DNA of 64,000 bases from Escherichia phage T4_ev151, in the sequence record LR597660; one strand, 5' to 3'. The notes under the pieces are model-generated. The model was not told the DNA's origin and did not search any database. It worked only from the letters and a program-made list of their open reading frames with translations. The position numbers were made by a program, and so were the translations under genes. This document shows positions 25,029 to 31,970 of this stretch, one piece after another (position 1 is the first letter of the stretch; each line of letters starts with the position of its first letter).

Positions 25029-27116
25029 TTATCCTTGAACGAACTTGTAAGGCATATTTGTAATATCTATGCAAGACGCAATAATTCCAAGAGATGATTC
25101 TACTTTCTGTTTAACATTTGACGAAACAAATGATGCAAAGTCAACTCTATTTTCTATATAGCCTGTCATTGTAACCAATTCACCAGTTTCCATTAAACGG
25201 TCTCCGTCATAGATTACCGATTCGGTGAGTTCTTCTGTGGTCATAACTTCAGCTTGAATGAGTTTTGTATTATTAGATGTTGTTCCGTCATTATTAGAAG
25301 CATCAGTTATTTTATTAACTTTGACCATCAATCCACGCGGTAGAATAACTTCAGCTTCAGTTGCTATTCCGAGATTTCCTGGATATACAACATTAACTTT
25401 ATGTGCGCCGTCAATAGCCCATCCTATTTGAACTTTAACGTATTCAGGATTTTCTTTATACGCTCTTATTTCGTTTGGATTAATAGTTATTCCTTCTTCA
25501 TTTTTATCAACTGTTAATTCATTGCGAGCTTCTGGTTCTAAAAGACCAATACCAGCATGTGTAATTCCAAAACGTCCAAAAATGATAGGAGTTAAAGAAG
25601 TAGATACAAAATTTCTGAAATAGAATACTTTATTTTTAACTAGTGCTTCGTATATAGGAGCAGTCATACTTTGAGCACGATAAACTGTAATGCCTTCTGG
25701 TATACGATCACCATTTTCAAAAGCATAATCTAAATTAGTTATAGCAGCTTCAATTTCTTTTTCACTCATTACTTCATAACGTTCTGGATCATAACGACCC
25801 AAAAGAAGATTATTGATGTCAGTATACCCTGAACCACAATACTCTCTAATGCCGCGCTTTTGTGATGGAGTATATTTAGAACCATCACGGGCAATAGTAA
25901 TATCAATCATTGGACCTGCACCAATTCCAGAAAAACTATAAATCATTCTTTTGAGGAATTTAGTTTTTGCTGCGTTCCAGGAATTTTTAGTCATTTCTTC
26001 CCAGACTTCATCTGGCTGCCCTTTACGAGTTTTATTATGTTTATCAAGCCAATTATCTTTATATTCTTCAAAGAGTTGATTAACAGCTGCTGCGTATTTC
26101 TCTAAACATTTTATTGAAGTAGTTGGTTCATTTTTAATTGCATTAAAAATTACTTCTTTAATTTTTTCTGAAACTTCACCGACTTGACTCATTGGAAAGA
26201 ATTTATAATCATAGTGAAGTTCATCTGCCGTTCCTTCAGCAATAATTTTTGCTGCCTTTGTTTTAGAAGCTAATGAATTAATTCCAATTTTCATTTCTTC
26301 TGCTTCGGGAATTAAAGGTGCAGTAGCTGGTTTATTAAAATTAGCTGCTGTAGATTCATACTTCTGGAATAATTCACTTTCAAATCTAGAAGATTCCAAT
26401 GATTGACTTTGCGCAATTGCTCTACGGGAAATTTTAACTTTAACGATTACAGCTTGGTCAGAACGTTTATCATTTTCTTGTGCAATAGATGCTGCAATTG
26501 CCTCATTTTTAGTTACTTGAGCTCCAGTATCTTTATTGATGTAAACATCGCCGACTTTCGATTCAACTTTAGTAAAGAGCTCGGTACTAATTTCCGGAAC
26601 TCCTGGAATGTCTTCTAGTGATACATTTTTGCGATGTATAAGAATATATGCATACTTTTTATCATAATCCCAGAGTTCCTTAAGAAGGACGTATCTGCCA
26701 CCTGAACGGCTACGGATAAGTCTATCAGCAATAACTTGAATTTGTCGAGCTTGACCAGCGGTTTTAGACTTAAGAATACGAAGCATACAAGCATCAATTT
26801 TATACTGACGCATTGTTTGCATTGCAACAGTAAAAACTGAATTGATATAATTAATTGGGCTTGGACCAAGACCTTTTAATTTAGCAATTGAACCTTTAGC
26901 AGTTAATGTAAAAGGAACAATGTGCATCATTTTATCGCCCATCTTTAAATCGCGATTAGTATCACCTCCAGATGTATAGGTACATAAACGAAAGCCTGGT
27001 TGTTCAATTGCATCATCAACATGAACTGAAAAAATTTGCGGTATTTTCTTCTTTGGATTTAAGTTTGTAATCGGAAGAGTAGTATCTTCGTCAAATAATT
27101 CTGTAATGAGTTCCAT
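25029..27116 (-). CDS. alt: Alt, virion-packaged ADP-ribosyltransferase
   Basis: 695 aa (T4 Alt is about 682 aa); MELITELFDEDTTLPITNLNPKKKIPQIF... Confidence 0.9.
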   Translation of the reverse strand: MELITELFDEDTTLPITNLNPKKKIPQIFSVHVDDAIEQPGFRLCTYTSGGDTNRDLKMGDKMMHIVPFTLTAKGSIAKLKGLGPSPINYINSVFTVAMQTMRQYKIDACMLRILKSKTAGQARQIQVIADRLIRSRSGGRYVLLKELWDYDKKYAYILIHRKNVSLEDIPGVPEISTELFTKVESKVGDVYINKDTGAQVTKNEAIAASIAQENDKRSDQAVIVKVKISRRAIAQSQSLESSRFESELFQKYESTAANFNKPATAPLIPEAEEMKIGINSLASKTKAAKIIAEGTADELHYDYKFFPMSQVGEVSEKIKEVIFNAIKNEPTTSIKCLEKYAAAVNQLFEEYKDNWLDKHNKTRKGQPDEVWEEMTKNSWNAAKTKFLKRMIYSFSGIGAGPMIDITIARDGSKYTPSQKRGIREYCGSGYTDINNLLLGRYDPERYEVMSEKEIEAAITNLDYAFENGDRIPEGITVYRAQSMTAPIYEALVKNKVFYFRNFVSTSLTPIIFGRFGITHAGIGLLEPEARNELTVDKNEEGITINPNEIRAYKENPEYVKVQIGWAIDGAHKVNVVYPGNLGIATEAEVILPRGLMVKVNKITDASNNDGTTSNNTKLIQAEVMTTEELTESVIYDGDRLMETGELVTMTGYIENRVDFASFVSSNVKQKVESSLGIIASCIDITNMPYKFVQG

Positions 27117-28817: not shown

Positions 28818-29083
28818 TGTTCATCCTTTAGAGTTTGGTTTACAGCTCTATTATAAATCAATTCATCATTAAGCTCAGTCAAAGACCTGTGGTACGTTGT
28901 TCTAACTTTATTTCCTTGCATCCAGTGCTTGACGTAAATGAAACCTTGCTCTACACATTTTTTAAAAATTCGTTCGTCTTTTTGAGCTCGGAATTCTGGA
29001 TTGCATCTAAAAAATTGATTTACGTGACCGTAATCACGTGTAGTATTACCTTCATTTTCATAAATAGTGTGAACAACAAACAT
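28814..29083 (-). CDS. Hypothetical protein, 89 aa (30.1 position)
   Basis: ORF coupled to its neighbours on both sides (TAATG upstream, ATGA with gene 30). Confidence 0.6.
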   Translation of the reverse strand: MFVVHTIYENEGNTTRDYGHVNQFFRCNPEFRAQKDERIFKKCVEQGFIYVKHWMQGNKVRTTYHRSLTELNDELIYNRAVNQTLKDEQ

Positions 29084-29919
29084 TAGAATGCTCCTTGGAA
29101 AATATTATCACCACTAGTAGGTCTATTATACAAATACTCTATGCCACCGGGTTTAATATAATTCCATGTCTGAAACGGATGCGTCTGATATGGATGATAT
29201 GGATTATAAGGATTAAATCCAGGAGTTCTCCAGGTAGTGTTCCAAGGAAAAGAATCGTTTTTAATCATCTTCTCGATTGCATCTTTTATAGCTTTTTCAC
29301 TATCAAAACTTTCTTTATTTTCCTTCGGTGAAAAAAGCTTATTTTCTACATCATTCCATGTATAAACTCGCTGTGCAGTTTTTGGAATACTGTCACGCTC
29401 CCCTCGAGCCATCCAATAAACAGGAACATTTAATATTTCACTCGCGTGATCGCAGTGGTGAGCGAGATCGTCAATATAACAAATTACGTTATATTTTTCT
29501 TTTGCCTTTTTGAACAGCTCTTCTTTTGAAGAATCATGACCACACATCATTACTTCTGAGAAGGCACCAGGAAAAAGAGCATTCAAATTAAATTGACGAT
29601 TCAGCAGAGCGTCAATAGAATCACCCAATGCTGTAACAGCTACAAAATTATAATCTTCTTTTAATTTGTTAATTACACACAGAGCATCTTTATATGGAGA
29701 CAAGTAACGAATAAAATCTGAACGATTGTATTTTTCAATTAACTTGACGCCAAGTTCTTCATCACAATTAAAGAGTTTACCAGGAGAAATAAATTTCTCA
29801 TCTTGGATCATTTTTAAAATATGTTCTAACGGAAGATTATATTTCTGAGCAAAATAAGGAAGACCTGATTGCCAGCTTAAACATACTCCATCAATATCAG
29901 TTAAAATAGTAGGCTTCAT
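29083..29919 (-). CDS. HAD-superfamily hydrolase-like protein with Pro/Tyr-rich C-terminal tail (30.2 position)
   Basis: 278 aa; N-terminal DIDGV motif (HAD motif I) and downstream YIDDL; C-terminus has NPYNPYHPYQTHPFQTW repeats. Confidence 0.65.
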   Translation of the reverse strand: MKPTILTDIDGVCLSWQSGLPYFAQKYNLPLEHILKMIQDEKFISPGKLFNCDEELGVKLIEKYNRSDFIRYLSPYKDALCVINKLKEDYNFVAVTALGDSIDALLNRQFNLNALFPGAFSEVMMCGHDSSKEELFKKAKEKYNVICYIDDLAHHCDHASEILNVPVYWMARGERDSIPKTAQRVYTWNDVENKLFSPKENKESFDSEKAIKDAIEKMIKNDSFPWNTTWRTPGFNPYNPYHPYQTHPFQTWNYIKPGGIEYLYNRPTSGDNIFQGAF

Positions 29920-30380
29920 AGAGAGTCTCTTAATAGGTTTAACACATCAATAAATTCAGCTTCGGTTAGTATTGTATCATCTTTTGTTAGACCACTAGCC
30001 ATGCTGTGCTTCAAAACTTTTCCTTTCGAGGCTAGTAATGCATCACGAAAGCCCTTGTTTTGGATTGCTGCTTCAAAATATGCATTTGTGTATAATTCTT
30101 TCCACGCTGGGGAGTATCTTGAAAACGGAACTCCAAGCCAGAAGAGGGTCCCACGGTCCTGAGCTCTAGCATAAGACCTTCCAGCTTGTTGGGCGGCAAG
30201 CCCGGATAACCCAAATATACGTCTTTGCTGTTCAACATTTTTCACCTTACATCCTTGGAGGAATCCTTCAAGACCTCCAAATTGAATGCCATCCATAACG
30301 AAAGGCCATTGGGCAAAATTACTTAATGCACATGATGGCCATTTAAAATTGCTTCTAATCTCTAACTCAGACATTTTCAA
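29916..30380 (-). CDS. YbiA/NADAR-like domain protein (30.3 position)
   Basis: 154 aa; family assignment is from recollection of the conserved pattern (WPFVMDGIQFGGLEGFLQGCK...), not a search. Confidence 0.5.
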   Translation of the reverse strand: MKMSELEIRSNFKWPSCALSNFAQWPFVMDGIQFGGLEGFLQGCKVKNVEQQRRIFGLSGLAAQQAGRSYARAQDRGTLFWLGVPFSRYSPAWKELYTNAYFEAAIQNKGFRDALLASKGKVLKHSMASGLTKDDTILTEAEFIDVLNLLRDSL

Positions 30381-30573
30381 TACTTATAATTTCAACATCA
30401 GCCCAATGACCATAGTTTGGTAGACGAAATTCAACTGGCCAGTCACTGCCTTTTTCTAATATAATAGACTTAACTTGTGGTTCTTCGTGTTCATCAGTAT
30501 ACGGATTTTTATCTGTTACTTTATATGTTACCTTAATGTACTGAATTCCAAAAATCTTATTAATTATATTCAT
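30367..30573 (-). CDS. Hypothetical protein, 68 aa
   Basis: ORF in the tightly packed 30.x cluster, overlapping neighbours. Confidence 0.5.
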   Translation of the reverse strand: MNIINKIFGIQYIKVTYKVTDKNPYTDEHEEPQVKSIILEKGSDWPVEFRLPNYGHWADVEIISIENV

Positions 30574-31054: not shown

Positions 31055-31094
31055 AATATTTTCCTCAGTAAGGGGCCGAAGCCCCTGTTTTATT

Positions 31095-31940: not shown

Positions 31941-31965
31941 TAAAAAAGGACTCCCGAAGGAGTCC
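31941..31965 (-). terminator. Strong rho-independent terminator on the minus strand
   Basis: GGACTCC-TTCG-GGAGTCC hairpin (31948-31965) followed on the minus strand by TTTTTTATTTTCC. Confidence 0.8.
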
Positions 31966-31970
31966 TCAAC

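What the first reader, a model, noticed from the sequence alone, without database searches (positions are those of the whole stretch)
29083..30380. Adjacent HAD-like hydrolase with an unusual Pro/Tyr-rich tail and a YbiA/NADAR-like protein in the 30.x accessory cluster
The 278-aa protein has an N-terminal HAD-type phosphatase signature (DIDGV...YIDDL) fused to a C-terminal low-complexity segment (NPYNPYHPYQTHPFQTW) that I cannot explain. The overlapping downstream 154-aa ORF looks like a YbiA/NADAR-type domain. NADAR proteins have been reported to remove ADP-ribose from modified guanine bases, which would be a plausible counter to ADP-ribosylating defence toxins; in the same minus-strand cluster is the phage's own ADP-ribosyltransferase Alt. 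The functional link is inference only.
Basis: inference. Interest (0 to 1): 0.5.

Follow-up and report, generated by a model that had tools for sequence, protein, structure and literature searches.

The report
T4 AdfN plus neighbouring HAD phosphatase
These are two ordinary genes of a T4-like phage: 30.3 is AdfN, an already published enzyme that strips ADP-ribose off phage DNA to defeat the bacterial DarTG1 defence, and 30.2 is an uncharacterised HAD-type phosphatase with a floppy repeat-derived tail that published transposon data show is not needed for that counter-defence.

Summary
The window is a Tequatrovirus (T4-like) genome, and the finding covers genes 30.2 and 30.3.

**Gene 30.3**
- The true start is the ATG at 30374, giving 152 aa. 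It is 149/152 identical to T4 gp30.3.
- T4 gp30.3 was published in 2023-2025 as AdfN, a NADAR ADP-ribosylglycohydrolase that reverses guanine ADP-ribosylation by DarT1.
- I confirmed the Pfam family, the NADAR fold, the catalytic E36/K43, the phage-type H123 and the intact C-terminal helix.

**Gene 30.2**
- Residues 1-197 form a confident C1-capped HAD fold with all four catalytic motifs. The closest relatives are 5'(3')-deoxyribonucleotidases.
- Residues 198-278 are mostly predicted disordered.
- The Pro/Tyr run is encoded by in-frame 9-nt and 15-nt tandem repeats.
- Tails are absent or unrelated in many homologues, but one lineage class keeps a short 'GIEYLxxQPT' motif.

**The pairing looks positional, not functional**
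- Across 77 related loci, 30.2 sits next to DNA ligase in 68. AdfN lies within 6 kb in only 33.
- T4 transposon data show 30.2 insertions are neutral under DarTG1 (log2FC -0.12), while 30.3 insertions are lost (-7.25).

Interest is low.

The parts
29916..30374 (-). Gene 30.3 = adfN (anti-DarT factor NADAR), 152 aa plus stop
   Evidence: 149/152 identical to T4 gp30.3. Pfam PF08010 4e-70. AF2 pLDDT 94, and the top Foldseek hits are YbiA 2b3w, PnNADAR 8bau and G. lovleyi NADAR 8bat. Function of the T4 protein: PMC11825919.
30240..30275 (-). Codons for the catalytic segment GLE36GFLQGCK43VK of AdfN
   Evidence: E36 and K43 are invariant in the 31-sequence family alignment. The E36A and K43A mutants of T4 AdfN lose most activity (PMC11825919). 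Coordinates checked.
30000..30014 (-). Codons for LKH123SM, the histidine that marks phage gp30.3-type NADARs
   Evidence: H123 is invariant in A2. PMC11125620 states that phage NADARs carry His where YbiA has Glu and DarT1-linked NADARs have Asp. That H123 is this residue is inferred from the alignment.
29919..29963 (-). Codons for the C-terminal helix of AdfN (residues 138-152), intact here
   Evidence: Helix 138-151 in the model. RB69 lacks the last 15 residues and is DarTG1-sensitive (PMC11825919).
29083..29919 (-). Gene 30.2, 278 aa plus stop: HAD-superfamily phosphatase-like protein with a disordered tail
   Evidence: 272/278 identical to T4 gp30.2. phrog_420 3e-93. Family alignment A1.
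29329..29919 (-). HAD core with C1 cap (residues 1-197)
29884..29901 (-). HAD motif I, T-D8-I-D10-G-V
   Evidence: D8 and D10 are invariant in 37 homologues. Coordinates checked.
29464..29478 (-). HAD motif IV, Y-I-D150-D151-L. Motif II T96 lies at 29626-29640 and motif III K132 at 29518-29532.
   Evidence: D150, D151 and K132 are invariant and T96 is nearly invariant. Coordinates checked.
29086..29328 (-). C-terminal tail (residues 198-278), mostly predicted disordered and variable between lineages
   Evidence: pLDDT is below 50 for 200-204, 223-237 and 239-278. One modest helix spans 207-220. Many homologues are 196-220 aa and lack the tail. In the tails of 51 homologue clusters, Pro is 3.2-fold and Trp 3.4-fold enriched.
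29168..29215 (-). In-frame tandem DNA repeats that encode the Pro/Tyr run: 9 nt x 3.1 = NPY-NPY-HPY, and 15 nt x 1.9 = HPYQT-HPFQT
   Evidence: Tandem Repeats Finder. A close relative carries one extra 15-nt unit at this spot.
29113..29148 (-). Short conserved island in the tail, G-G-I-E-Y-L-Y-N-R-P-T-S (residues 258-269)
   Evidence: The 'G-x-G-T-G-I-E-Y-L-x-x-Q-P-T' motif recurs in 16-17 homologue clusters that are otherwise only about 45-55% identical. It is replaced by 'DAGYFNRLT' in two close relatives.
29916..29919 (-). ATGA overlap between the 30.3 stop and the 30.2 start
   Evidence: Read directly from the sequence.
30367..30374 (-). ATGTCTGA overlap between the 30.4 stop and the 30.3 start
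   Evidence: Read directly from the sequence.

Best explanation
Two separate, already catalogued T4 early genes lie side by side.

Gene 30.3 is AdfN, a stand-alone NADAR ADP-ribosylglycohydrolase. It hydrolyses the N-glycosidic bond between guanine and ADP-ribose that the host DarT1 toxin places on phage DNA. This restores replication in DarTG1-carrying hosts. That function was shown experimentally for the 98%-identical T4 protein. Here I showed only sequence, fold and catalytic residues.

Gene 30.2 is a Mg-dependent HAD phosphatase of the C1-capped type. Its closest relatives are 5'(3')-deoxyribonucleotidases. It most likely dephosphorylates a small phosphorylated metabolite, with a (deoxy)nucleoside monophosphate as my best guess. 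This would be part of the phage's replication and nucleotide-metabolism module (inferred).

The C-terminal 80 residues of gp30.2 are a fast-evolving, mostly disordered Pro/Trp/Tyr-rich extension. It grew partly by slippage of 9-nt and 15-nt repeats. In one lineage class it ends in a short conserved motif (GIEYLxxQPT) that probably docks onto an unidentified partner (inferred).

The two genes are neighbours, and possibly translationally coupled, in T-even phages. They do not work together against DarTG1.
For: Identity of the window:
- Tequatrovirus, 98% identical to phages U115 and AR1.

AdfN:
- 149/152 identical to T4 gp30.3 and full length, with E36 and K43 present.
- PF08010 at 234 bits.
- The family profile hits YbiA at E=8e-4, and 5/31 members hit Pfam NADAR.
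- AF2 pLDDT is 94, and the only three meaningful PDB matches are NADAR structures.
- Published genetics and biochemistry of T4 AdfN (PMC11825919; PMC11125620).
- In HIDEN-SEQ, 30.3 has log2FC -7.25 under DarTG1.

gp30.2:
- D8, D10, K132, D150 and D151 are invariant and T96 is nearly invariant.
- The core is modelled with block pLDDT of 85-98 up to residue 190.
- Foldseek gave 114 hits at E<=1e-3, and every match listed is a HAD-superfamily structure or an engineered derivative. The best target coverage is on deoxyribonucleotidase-like 3bwv (TMt 0.70) and cdN 2i7d (0.66).
- The family profile hits mouse dNT 2jao at E=0.0085. Seven of 37 members hit Pfam NT5C and 11/37 hit PF00702.

Tail:
- Mostly pLDDT below 50, with tandem repeats and indel variation in close relatives.
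- Absent in many homologues, with several motif classes among the rest.

Independence from AdfN:
- In T4, 30.2 has 71 TA sites and log2FC -0.12 (p=0.61) under DarTG1. It is also neutral in M9 and on K-12.
- Ligase lies just downstream of 30.2 in 68/77 loci. 30.3 lies within 6 kb in only 33/77.
Against: - No substrate or activity has been measured for gp30.2, and I found no paper assigning it a function.
- The window protein itself does not reach any Pfam HAD or NT5C threshold.
- T4-like genomes are collinear, so adjacency to ligase may be inherited position rather than functional coupling.
- The ATGA overlap and the direct abutment of 30.3 and 30.2 in 21 loci leave room for some shared regulation.
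- The tail motif was mutated away in two close relatives, which weakens the claim that it is a required docking site.
Confidence: 0.72

Rival explanations
1. gp30.2 and AdfN form a functional pair. The HAD phosphatase would be the 'additional T-even factor' that AdfN(T4) needs in vivo, or it would process a product of de-ADP-ribosylation such as ADP-ribose or ribose-5-phosphate.
For: - The stop and start codons overlap (ATGA).
- The two genes abut in 21 of 77 related loci, including distant Acinetobacter-type phages.
- Both families are near-universal in Straboviridae with matching host distributions.
- AdfN(T4) works fully only during T-even infection, and the authors suggest an unknown phage co-factor (PMC11825919).
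Against: - T4 transposon insertions in 30.2 (71 TA sites) are not depleted on a DarTG1 host (log2FC -0.12, p=0.61). Insertions in 30.3 are lost (-7.25).
- 30.3 lies elsewhere in the genome in 44 of 77 loci, while 30.2 stays beside ligase.
- Co-occurrence is uninformative because both genes are near-core.
- Capped HAD enzymes have no known role in NADAR chemistry (my own knowledge).
Confidence: 0.07
2. The tail is a tether to the replisome. The 'G-I-E-Y-L-Y' island would be a sliding-clamp (gp45) interaction motif like [ST]-L-D-F-L-[FYL] at the C-termini of T4 gp43, gp55 and gp33. It would bring the phosphatase to nicks next to DNA ligase, for example to clean 3'-phosphate ends.
For: - T4 gp43 ends in SLDFLFG, gp55 in SLDFLYEAND and gp33 in TLDFLL. 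IEYLY is a conservative match at every position.
- As in gp55, the motif follows a disordered linker.
- 30.2 is adjacent to DNA ligase in 68/77 loci. In two distant contigs it lies near a different, T7-type ligase.
- HAD phosphatases include DNA 3'-phosphatases such as the T4 Pnk phosphatase domain (my own knowledge).
Against: - There is no covariation. Phages whose polymerase tail is SLEDMFDF or SLDNMFDF keep GTGIEYL unchanged. Two phages with SLDFLFG have lost the motif (DAGYF).
- The motif ends 15 residues from the C-terminus, unlike the known clamp binders.
- Other tail classes carry unrelated endings, and many homologues have no tail.
- A C1 cap usually restricts HAD enzymes to small substrates (my own knowledge).
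- A five-residue resemblance found after the fact is weak evidence.
Confidence: 0.08
3. The tail has no function. It would be a tolerated, drifting read-through extension created by repeat slippage and indels, and gp30.2 would act as a plain cytosolic phosphatase.
For: - The tail is absent in many homologues of 196-220 aa and unalignable between lineages.
- It contains slippage-prone repeats with indel variants.
- The motif is lost in L004 and L005.
- The tail profile found no other protein carrying the motif.
Against: - The same unusual Pro/Trp-rich composition recurs in independent tail classes.
- A 10-15 residue island is conserved across homologues that are only about 50% identical.
- The open frame is kept for about 80 codons in an AT-rich genome where stops arise easily.
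Confidence: 0.13

Closest known systems
T4 AdfN (gp30.3), anti-DarT factor NADAR (Johannesman et al., Nat Commun 2025, PMC11825919). Pfam PF08010 Phage_30_3 within the NADAR/YbiA superfamily.
   Same: - 98% identical and the same length.
- Same catalytic E36 and K43, same phage-type His, and an intact C-terminal helix.
- Same map position between 30.4 and 30.2.
   Different: Three conservative substitutions only (K11R, L114Q, M125I relative to T4). No functional difference is expected.
DarG1-type NADAR antitoxins (G. lovleyi NADAR, PDB 8bat) and E. coli YbiA (PDB 2b3w)
   Same: Same fold (Foldseek TMq 0.57-0.68) and the same SNF...E...K catalytic core. Both act on guanine-linked ADP-ribose (PMC11543638, PMC11125620).
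   Different: - AdfN is an orphan with no linked DarT.
- It has His in place of the Asp/Glu of the last strand.
- It does not neutralise DarT1 in uninfected cells (PMC11825919, PMC11125620).
5'(3')-deoxyribonucleotidases, NT5C family (cdN/mdN: PDB 2jao, 2i7d, 4yih; S. epidermidis 3bwv)
   Same: - Capped HAD fold.
- A DxDGV motif I and a DD motif IV.
- Similar core size of about 195 aa.
- The best sequence-level signal of any solved family.
   Different: - Only 15-21% identity, with marginal E-values.
- gp30.2 has its own invariant residues (W16, S18, Y64, S67, R108, N111, R172).
- gp30.2 carries an 80-residue disordered tail that these enzymes lack.
- The substrate is unknown.
T4 gp45 clamp-binding tails of gp43, gp55 and gp33
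   Same: A disordered linker followed by a hydrophobic-acidic-aromatic-Leu-aromatic pentapeptide.
   Different: The motif is not at the extreme C-terminus, shows no covariation with the polymerase tail, and is lost in close relatives.

Membership tests
gp30.3/AdfN phage NADAR (Pfam PF08010) | Scores above the curated Pfam gathering threshold | tested here: met
   234.4 bits against a cut-off of 36, with the full-length profile matched.
gp30.3/AdfN phage NADAR (Pfam PF08010) | YbiA/NADAR fold | tested here: met
   AF2 pLDDT 94. The top three Foldseek PDB hits are 2b3w, 8bau and 8bat, and nothing else falls below E=2. The family profile hits YbiA at E=8e-4.
gp30.3/AdfN phage NADAR (Pfam PF08010) | Catalytic Glu and Lys (E36 and K43 in T4 numbering) | tested here: met
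   Both are present and invariant in 31 homologues.
gp30.3/AdfN phage NADAR (Pfam PF08010) | Histidine in the last strand, which distinguishes phage NADARs from the YbiA (Glu) and DarT1-linked (Asp) types | tested here: met
   H123 is invariant and lies next to strand 120-122 of the model. The criterion comes from PMC11125620. The residue equivalence is inferred, not superposed.
gp30.3/AdfN phage NADAR (Pfam PF08010) | Full-length C-terminal helix, whose loss in RB69 gives DarTG1 sensitivity | tested here: met
   152 aa with helix 138-151 present.
gp30.3/AdfN phage NADAR (Pfam PF08010) | Removes ADP-ribose from guanine in DNA and rescues plating on DarTG1 hosts | not testable with these tools
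   Shown for the 98%-identical T4 protein (PMC11825919; HIDEN-SEQ). Not tested for this phage.
HAD superfamily phosphatase | Motif I DxDx(T/V), with the second Asp as general acid/base | tested here: met
   D8-I-D10-G-V, with both Asp invariant.
HAD superfamily phosphatase | Motif II Ser/Thr, motif III Lys, and motif IV acidic pair | tested here: met
   T96 is nearly invariant. K132, D150 and D151 are invariant.
HAD superfamily phosphatase | Rossmann-like core with a cap inserted after motif I (C1 cap) | tested here: met
HAD superfamily phosphatase | Reaches a curated Pfam or NCBIfam HAD model threshold | tested here: not met
   The window protein has no HAD hit at E<=1. Of 37 relatives, 11 give weak PF00702 hits (best 3.5e-4). 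Membership therefore rests on fold and motifs.
HAD superfamily phosphatase | Mg-dependent phosphomonoesterase activity | not testable with these tools
   No biochemical report was found.
NT5C 5'(3')-deoxyribonucleotidase family (PF06941) | Significant sequence match to the family model or its solved members | tested here: inconclusive
T4 gp45 sliding-clamp binding motif | [ST]-L-D-F-L-[FYL] at the extreme C-terminus, varying together with the clamp and polymerase tail | tested here: not met
   GIEYLY is a conservative look-alike, but it ends 15 residues from the C-terminus. It does not covary with the gp43 tail in 13 contigs and is lost in two T4-type contigs.

The most novel reading that the evidence does not exclude
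The Pro/Trp/Tyr-rich tails of the gp30.2 family could be interchangeable docking modules: a disordered linker plus a lineage-specific short motif such as GIEYLxxQPT, LRAYY or YxLLN. They would tether a nucleotide- or DNA-end phosphatase to a replication or repair partner such as DNA ligase, the clamp or a host protein. That would make gp30.2 a recruited clean-up enzyme of the T4-like replisome rather than a free metabolic phosphatase.
Probability: 0.12. Interest if true: 0.45.

Novelty: already known. Interest (0 to 1): 0.15.

Why it matters
The part of the finding that sounded exciting, a phage NADAR that undoes ADP-ribosylating defence toxins, is correct. It was established experimentally for T4 gp30.3 (AdfN) between 2023 and 2025, so it adds nothing new. 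It does show that the first-stage reader can infer function from raw sequence.

The remaining open item is small. gp30.2 is a near-core gene of T4-like phages that is dispensable in the laboratory. It has a clear HAD phosphatase fold and no known substrate. Finding its substrate and the partner of its tail would fill one of the many 'hypothetical protein' gaps in the T4 map. It might also reveal a nucleotide-pool or DNA-end clean-up step linked to ligase.

Tried and rejected
1. **30.2 as the missing T-even co-factor of AdfN.** Rejected. HIDEN-SEQ supplementary data show 30.2 insertions are neutral under DarTG1, and synteny is not conserved.

2. **Tail motif as a gp45 clamp-binding peptide.**
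   - I read the T4 gp43, gp55 and gp33 C-termini.
   - I then paired gp43 tails with 30.2 tails in 13 contigs.
   - There was no covariation, and the motif is lost in two T4-type contigs. The idea is unsupported.

3. **Search for other proteins with the tail motif.** I searched the 5.8-billion-protein set with a tail profile. It found only a fragment of the same tail. Only 4 candidates were collected, so this is a weak negative.

4. **Direct Pfam, NCBIfam and PDB sequence searches with gp30.2 alone**. These gave only noise-level hits: TPK_catalytic at 0.19, thi_PPkinase at 0.008 and RanGAP at 1.3. I disregarded them.

5. **Promoter and terminator scan of 28.7-32.5 kb**. Counts were no higher than in shuffled sequence, so it was uninformative.

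6. **Literature searches for gp30.2**. No functional study was found.

7. **Link to Alt.** Alt is present and in the same strand block, but nothing ties it to either gene. In HIDEN-SEQ, alt is neutral under DarTG1.

8. **Distant 30.2 homologues at 23-28% identity**. They sit in replication and nucleotide-metabolism modules of marine T4-like contigs and carry no tail. This is consistent with the nucleotide-metabolism guess but gives no decisive functional clue.
Full report
**What the window is.** The 1.8-kb stretch around the finding is 98% identical to Escherichia phages U115 and AR1, and 673 phage records match it, almost all T4-like. Comparison with an annotated T4 record shows the T4 gene order alt, alt.1, 30 (DNA ligase), 30.1, 30.2, 30.3, 30.4 and so on, all on the minus strand. 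The finding covers T4 genes 30.2 (29083-29919) and 30.3.

**Check of the observation.**
- Both ORFs are there and the quoted peptide strings are at the stated places.
- The 154-aa reading of 30.3 starts at a TTG. T4 annotates the ATG two codons downstream (window 30374), giving 152 aa. Only with that start does the published residue numbering fit.
- 30.3 is transcriptionally upstream of 30.2. Its TGA overlaps the 30.2 ATG (ATGA), and its own ATG overlaps the end of 30.4 (ATGTCTGA).

**Gene 30.3.**
- The protein is 149/152 identical to T4 gp30.3 and scores 234 bits on Pfam PF08010.
- A profile of 31 diverse homologues hits E. coli YbiA (PDB 2b3w) at E=8e-4 over the SNF...E...K core. Five of the 31 also hit Pfam NADAR PF08719.
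- An AlphaFold2 model has mean pLDDT 94. Against the PDB it finds YbiA (E=8e-5, TMq 0.68), the Phytophthora NADAR-ADP-ribose complex 8bau and the Geobacter lovleyi NADAR 8bat. The next match has E above 2.
- E36, K43 and H123 are invariant in the family.
- The literature settles the function for the T4 protein:
  - Schuller et al. 2023 (PMC11543638) defined NADARs as guanine de-ADP-ribosylating enzymes.
  - The 2024 Toxins study (PMC11125620) showed that the phage protein is active on G-ADPr DNA in vitro but is not an antitoxin in cells. It also notes the His that marks phage gp30.3 proteins.
  - Johannesman et al. 2025 (PMC11825919) named it AdfN. They showed it is necessary and sufficient for T-even resistance to DarTG1, that E36A and K43A weaken it, and that RB69 is sensitive because a frameshift removes the last 15 residues.
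  - A T4 transposon screen confirms it: 30.3 has log2FC -7.25 on a DarTG1 host (bioRxiv 10.1101/2025.11.20.689424).
- The window's allele is full length with all key residues, so it should be active.

**Gene 30.2, the core.**
- The protein is 272/278 identical to T4 gp30.2 and belongs to phrog_420, of unknown function.
- On its own it gives no meaningful Pfam, NCBIfam or PDB sequence hit.
- One hundred homologue clusters were found, all from T4-like phage contigs where the source is named.
- In a 37-sequence alignment the invariant residues include D8 and D10 (motif I, DxDGV), K132 (motif III) and D150-D151 (motif IV). T96 (motif II) is nearly invariant.
- AlphaFold2 models the core with block pLDDT of 85-98 up to residue 190 and 80 for 191-200. 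It is a Rossmann-like core with a helical cap inserted after strand 1.
- Foldseek returns 114 PDB matches at E<=1e-3. Every match listed in the output is a HAD-superfamily structure or an engineered derivative. The best target coverage is on deoxyribonucleotidase-like 3bwv (TMt 0.70) and human cdN 2i7d (0.66).
- The family profile hits mouse 5'(3')-deoxyribonucleotidase 2jao at E=0.0085. Seven of 37 members hit Pfam NT5C and 11/37 hit PF00702.
- The HAD assignment is therefore solid at fold and motif level. The nucleotidase subfamily is only the best guess.

**Gene 30.2, the tail.**
- Residues 198-278 are modelled with very low confidence, except for a helix at 207-220.
Nine nucleotides x 3.1 give NPY-NPY-HPY, and 15 nt x 1.9 give HPYQT-HPFQT. 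A close relative carries one more 15-nt unit there. The low complexity is thus a product of replication slippage.
- Across the family the tail is the variable part:
  - About a third of the clusters are only 196-220 aa and lack it.
  - The rest fall into unrelated classes ending in GIEYLxxQPT (16 clusters, including T4), LRAYY-like (12) or YxLLN-like (7) motifs.
  - All classes share a composition enriched in Pro (3.2-fold) and Trp (3.4-fold) relative to the core.
- The T4-class island 'G-x-G-T-G-I-E-Y-L-x-x-Q-P-T' is conserved among proteins only about 50% identical. That pattern suggests a short docking motif at the end of a flexible linker.
- I tested one concrete candidate partner:
  - T4 clamp binders end in SLDFLFG (gp43), SLDFLYEAND (gp55) and TLDFLL (gp33), and IEYLY is a conservative look-alike.
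  - In 13 contigs where I could pair both genes, the 30.2 motif stays the same where the polymerase tail is SLEDMFDF or SLDNMFDF. It is destroyed (DAGYF) in two contigs with the T4-type polymerase tail.
  - I therefore do not adopt the clamp idea.
- A profile of the tail found no other protein with the motif, but the search collected only four candidates.

**Are the two genes a pair?**
- In 77 IMG/VR loci carrying a 30.2 homologue, DNA ligase lies just downstream in 68, usually within 300 bp and sometimes with 30.1 between.
- A 30.3 homologue lies within 6 kb upstream in 33 of the 77, and directly abuts 30.2 in 21.
- In Klebsiella- and Enterobacter-type phages 30.3 is tens of kilobases away.
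- Two distant contigs place the HAD gene 600 bp from a small T7-type ligase. Other distant homologues sit among clamp-loader, MazG, dCMP-deaminase and UvsX genes.
- Both families are near-core in Straboviridae (1,439 and 1,510 phage records, with matching host profiles). Co-occurrence therefore says nothing.
- The decisive evidence is published genetics. On a DarTG1 host, T4 insertions in 30.2 (71 TA sites) are unchanged (log2FC -0.12, p=0.61), while 30.3 insertions vanish.
  - I assigned that supplementary part to the DarTG1 sheet from the 30.3 value and the sheet order, which one search confirmed.
- 30.2 is also dispensable on K-12 (72/72 sites hit) and neutral in minimal medium.
- The HAD protein is therefore not the unknown T-even factor that AdfN needs, and the adjacency is positional.

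**Verdict.** The suggested HAD-NADAR-Alt connection is not supported. What is left is an uncharacterised, dispensable, near-core HAD phosphatase. Its tail is now explained in origin (repeat slippage, disorder) but not in purpose. Interest is low.

Noticed in passing
window 30367-30573 (-), gene 30.4: In the published T4 transposon screen, 30.4 is also significantly depleted on the DarTG1 host (log2FC -1.79, adjusted p=0.014). Its stop overlaps the adfN start by 8 nt (ATGTCTGA). The simplest reading is a polar or translational-coupling effect on adfN, but an accessory role is not excluded.
   Followed up: partly
window 30032-30238 (-): There is an internal ORF in another frame inside 30.3. It starts at the same offset as T4's annotated 30.3' ('internal translation in a different reading frame'), but is 68 aa here against 75 aa in T4. 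I found no evidence for or against expression.
   Followed up: no
window 25029-27116 (-), alt: The Alt ADP-ribosyltransferase is 695 aa. It is nearly identical to T4 Alt over the first 245 or so residues and then diverges sharply (80% identity over the first 345 aa compared). This suggests a mosaic or swapped segment.
   Followed up: no
proteins P0104-P0107, P0113, P0117 (homologues of 30.3): Many database clusters of gp30.3 are truncated (126, 109, 91 and 89 aa) while 81-99% identical to the window protein over the aligned part. This suggests that loss or truncation of adfN, as described for RB69, recurs in T-even phages. Some may be assembly fragments.
   Followed up: no
L076 6004-6570 and 7170-8288; L077 likewise: A distant tail-less homologue of gp30.2 (24% identity) lies 600 bp upstream of a 372-aa T7-type ATP-dependent DNA ligase carrying the KxDG motif. 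The contigs do not look like T4 relatives. This is an independent HAD-ligase adjacency.
   Followed up: partly
protein P0015 (302 aa): One homologue cluster carries the gp30.2 core together with a Pfam DUF3045 (gp30.1) match in a single 302-aa product. It is either a natural 30.2-30.1 fusion or a frameshift or assembly artefact.
   Followed up: no
window 31946-31967 (-) and 31071-31086 (+): Two strong terminator-like hairpins (9 and 6 bp stems, GC-rich, followed by T-runs) lie upstream of the 30.x block near 30.8-30.9. The total count does not exceed that in shuffled sequence.
   Followed up: no
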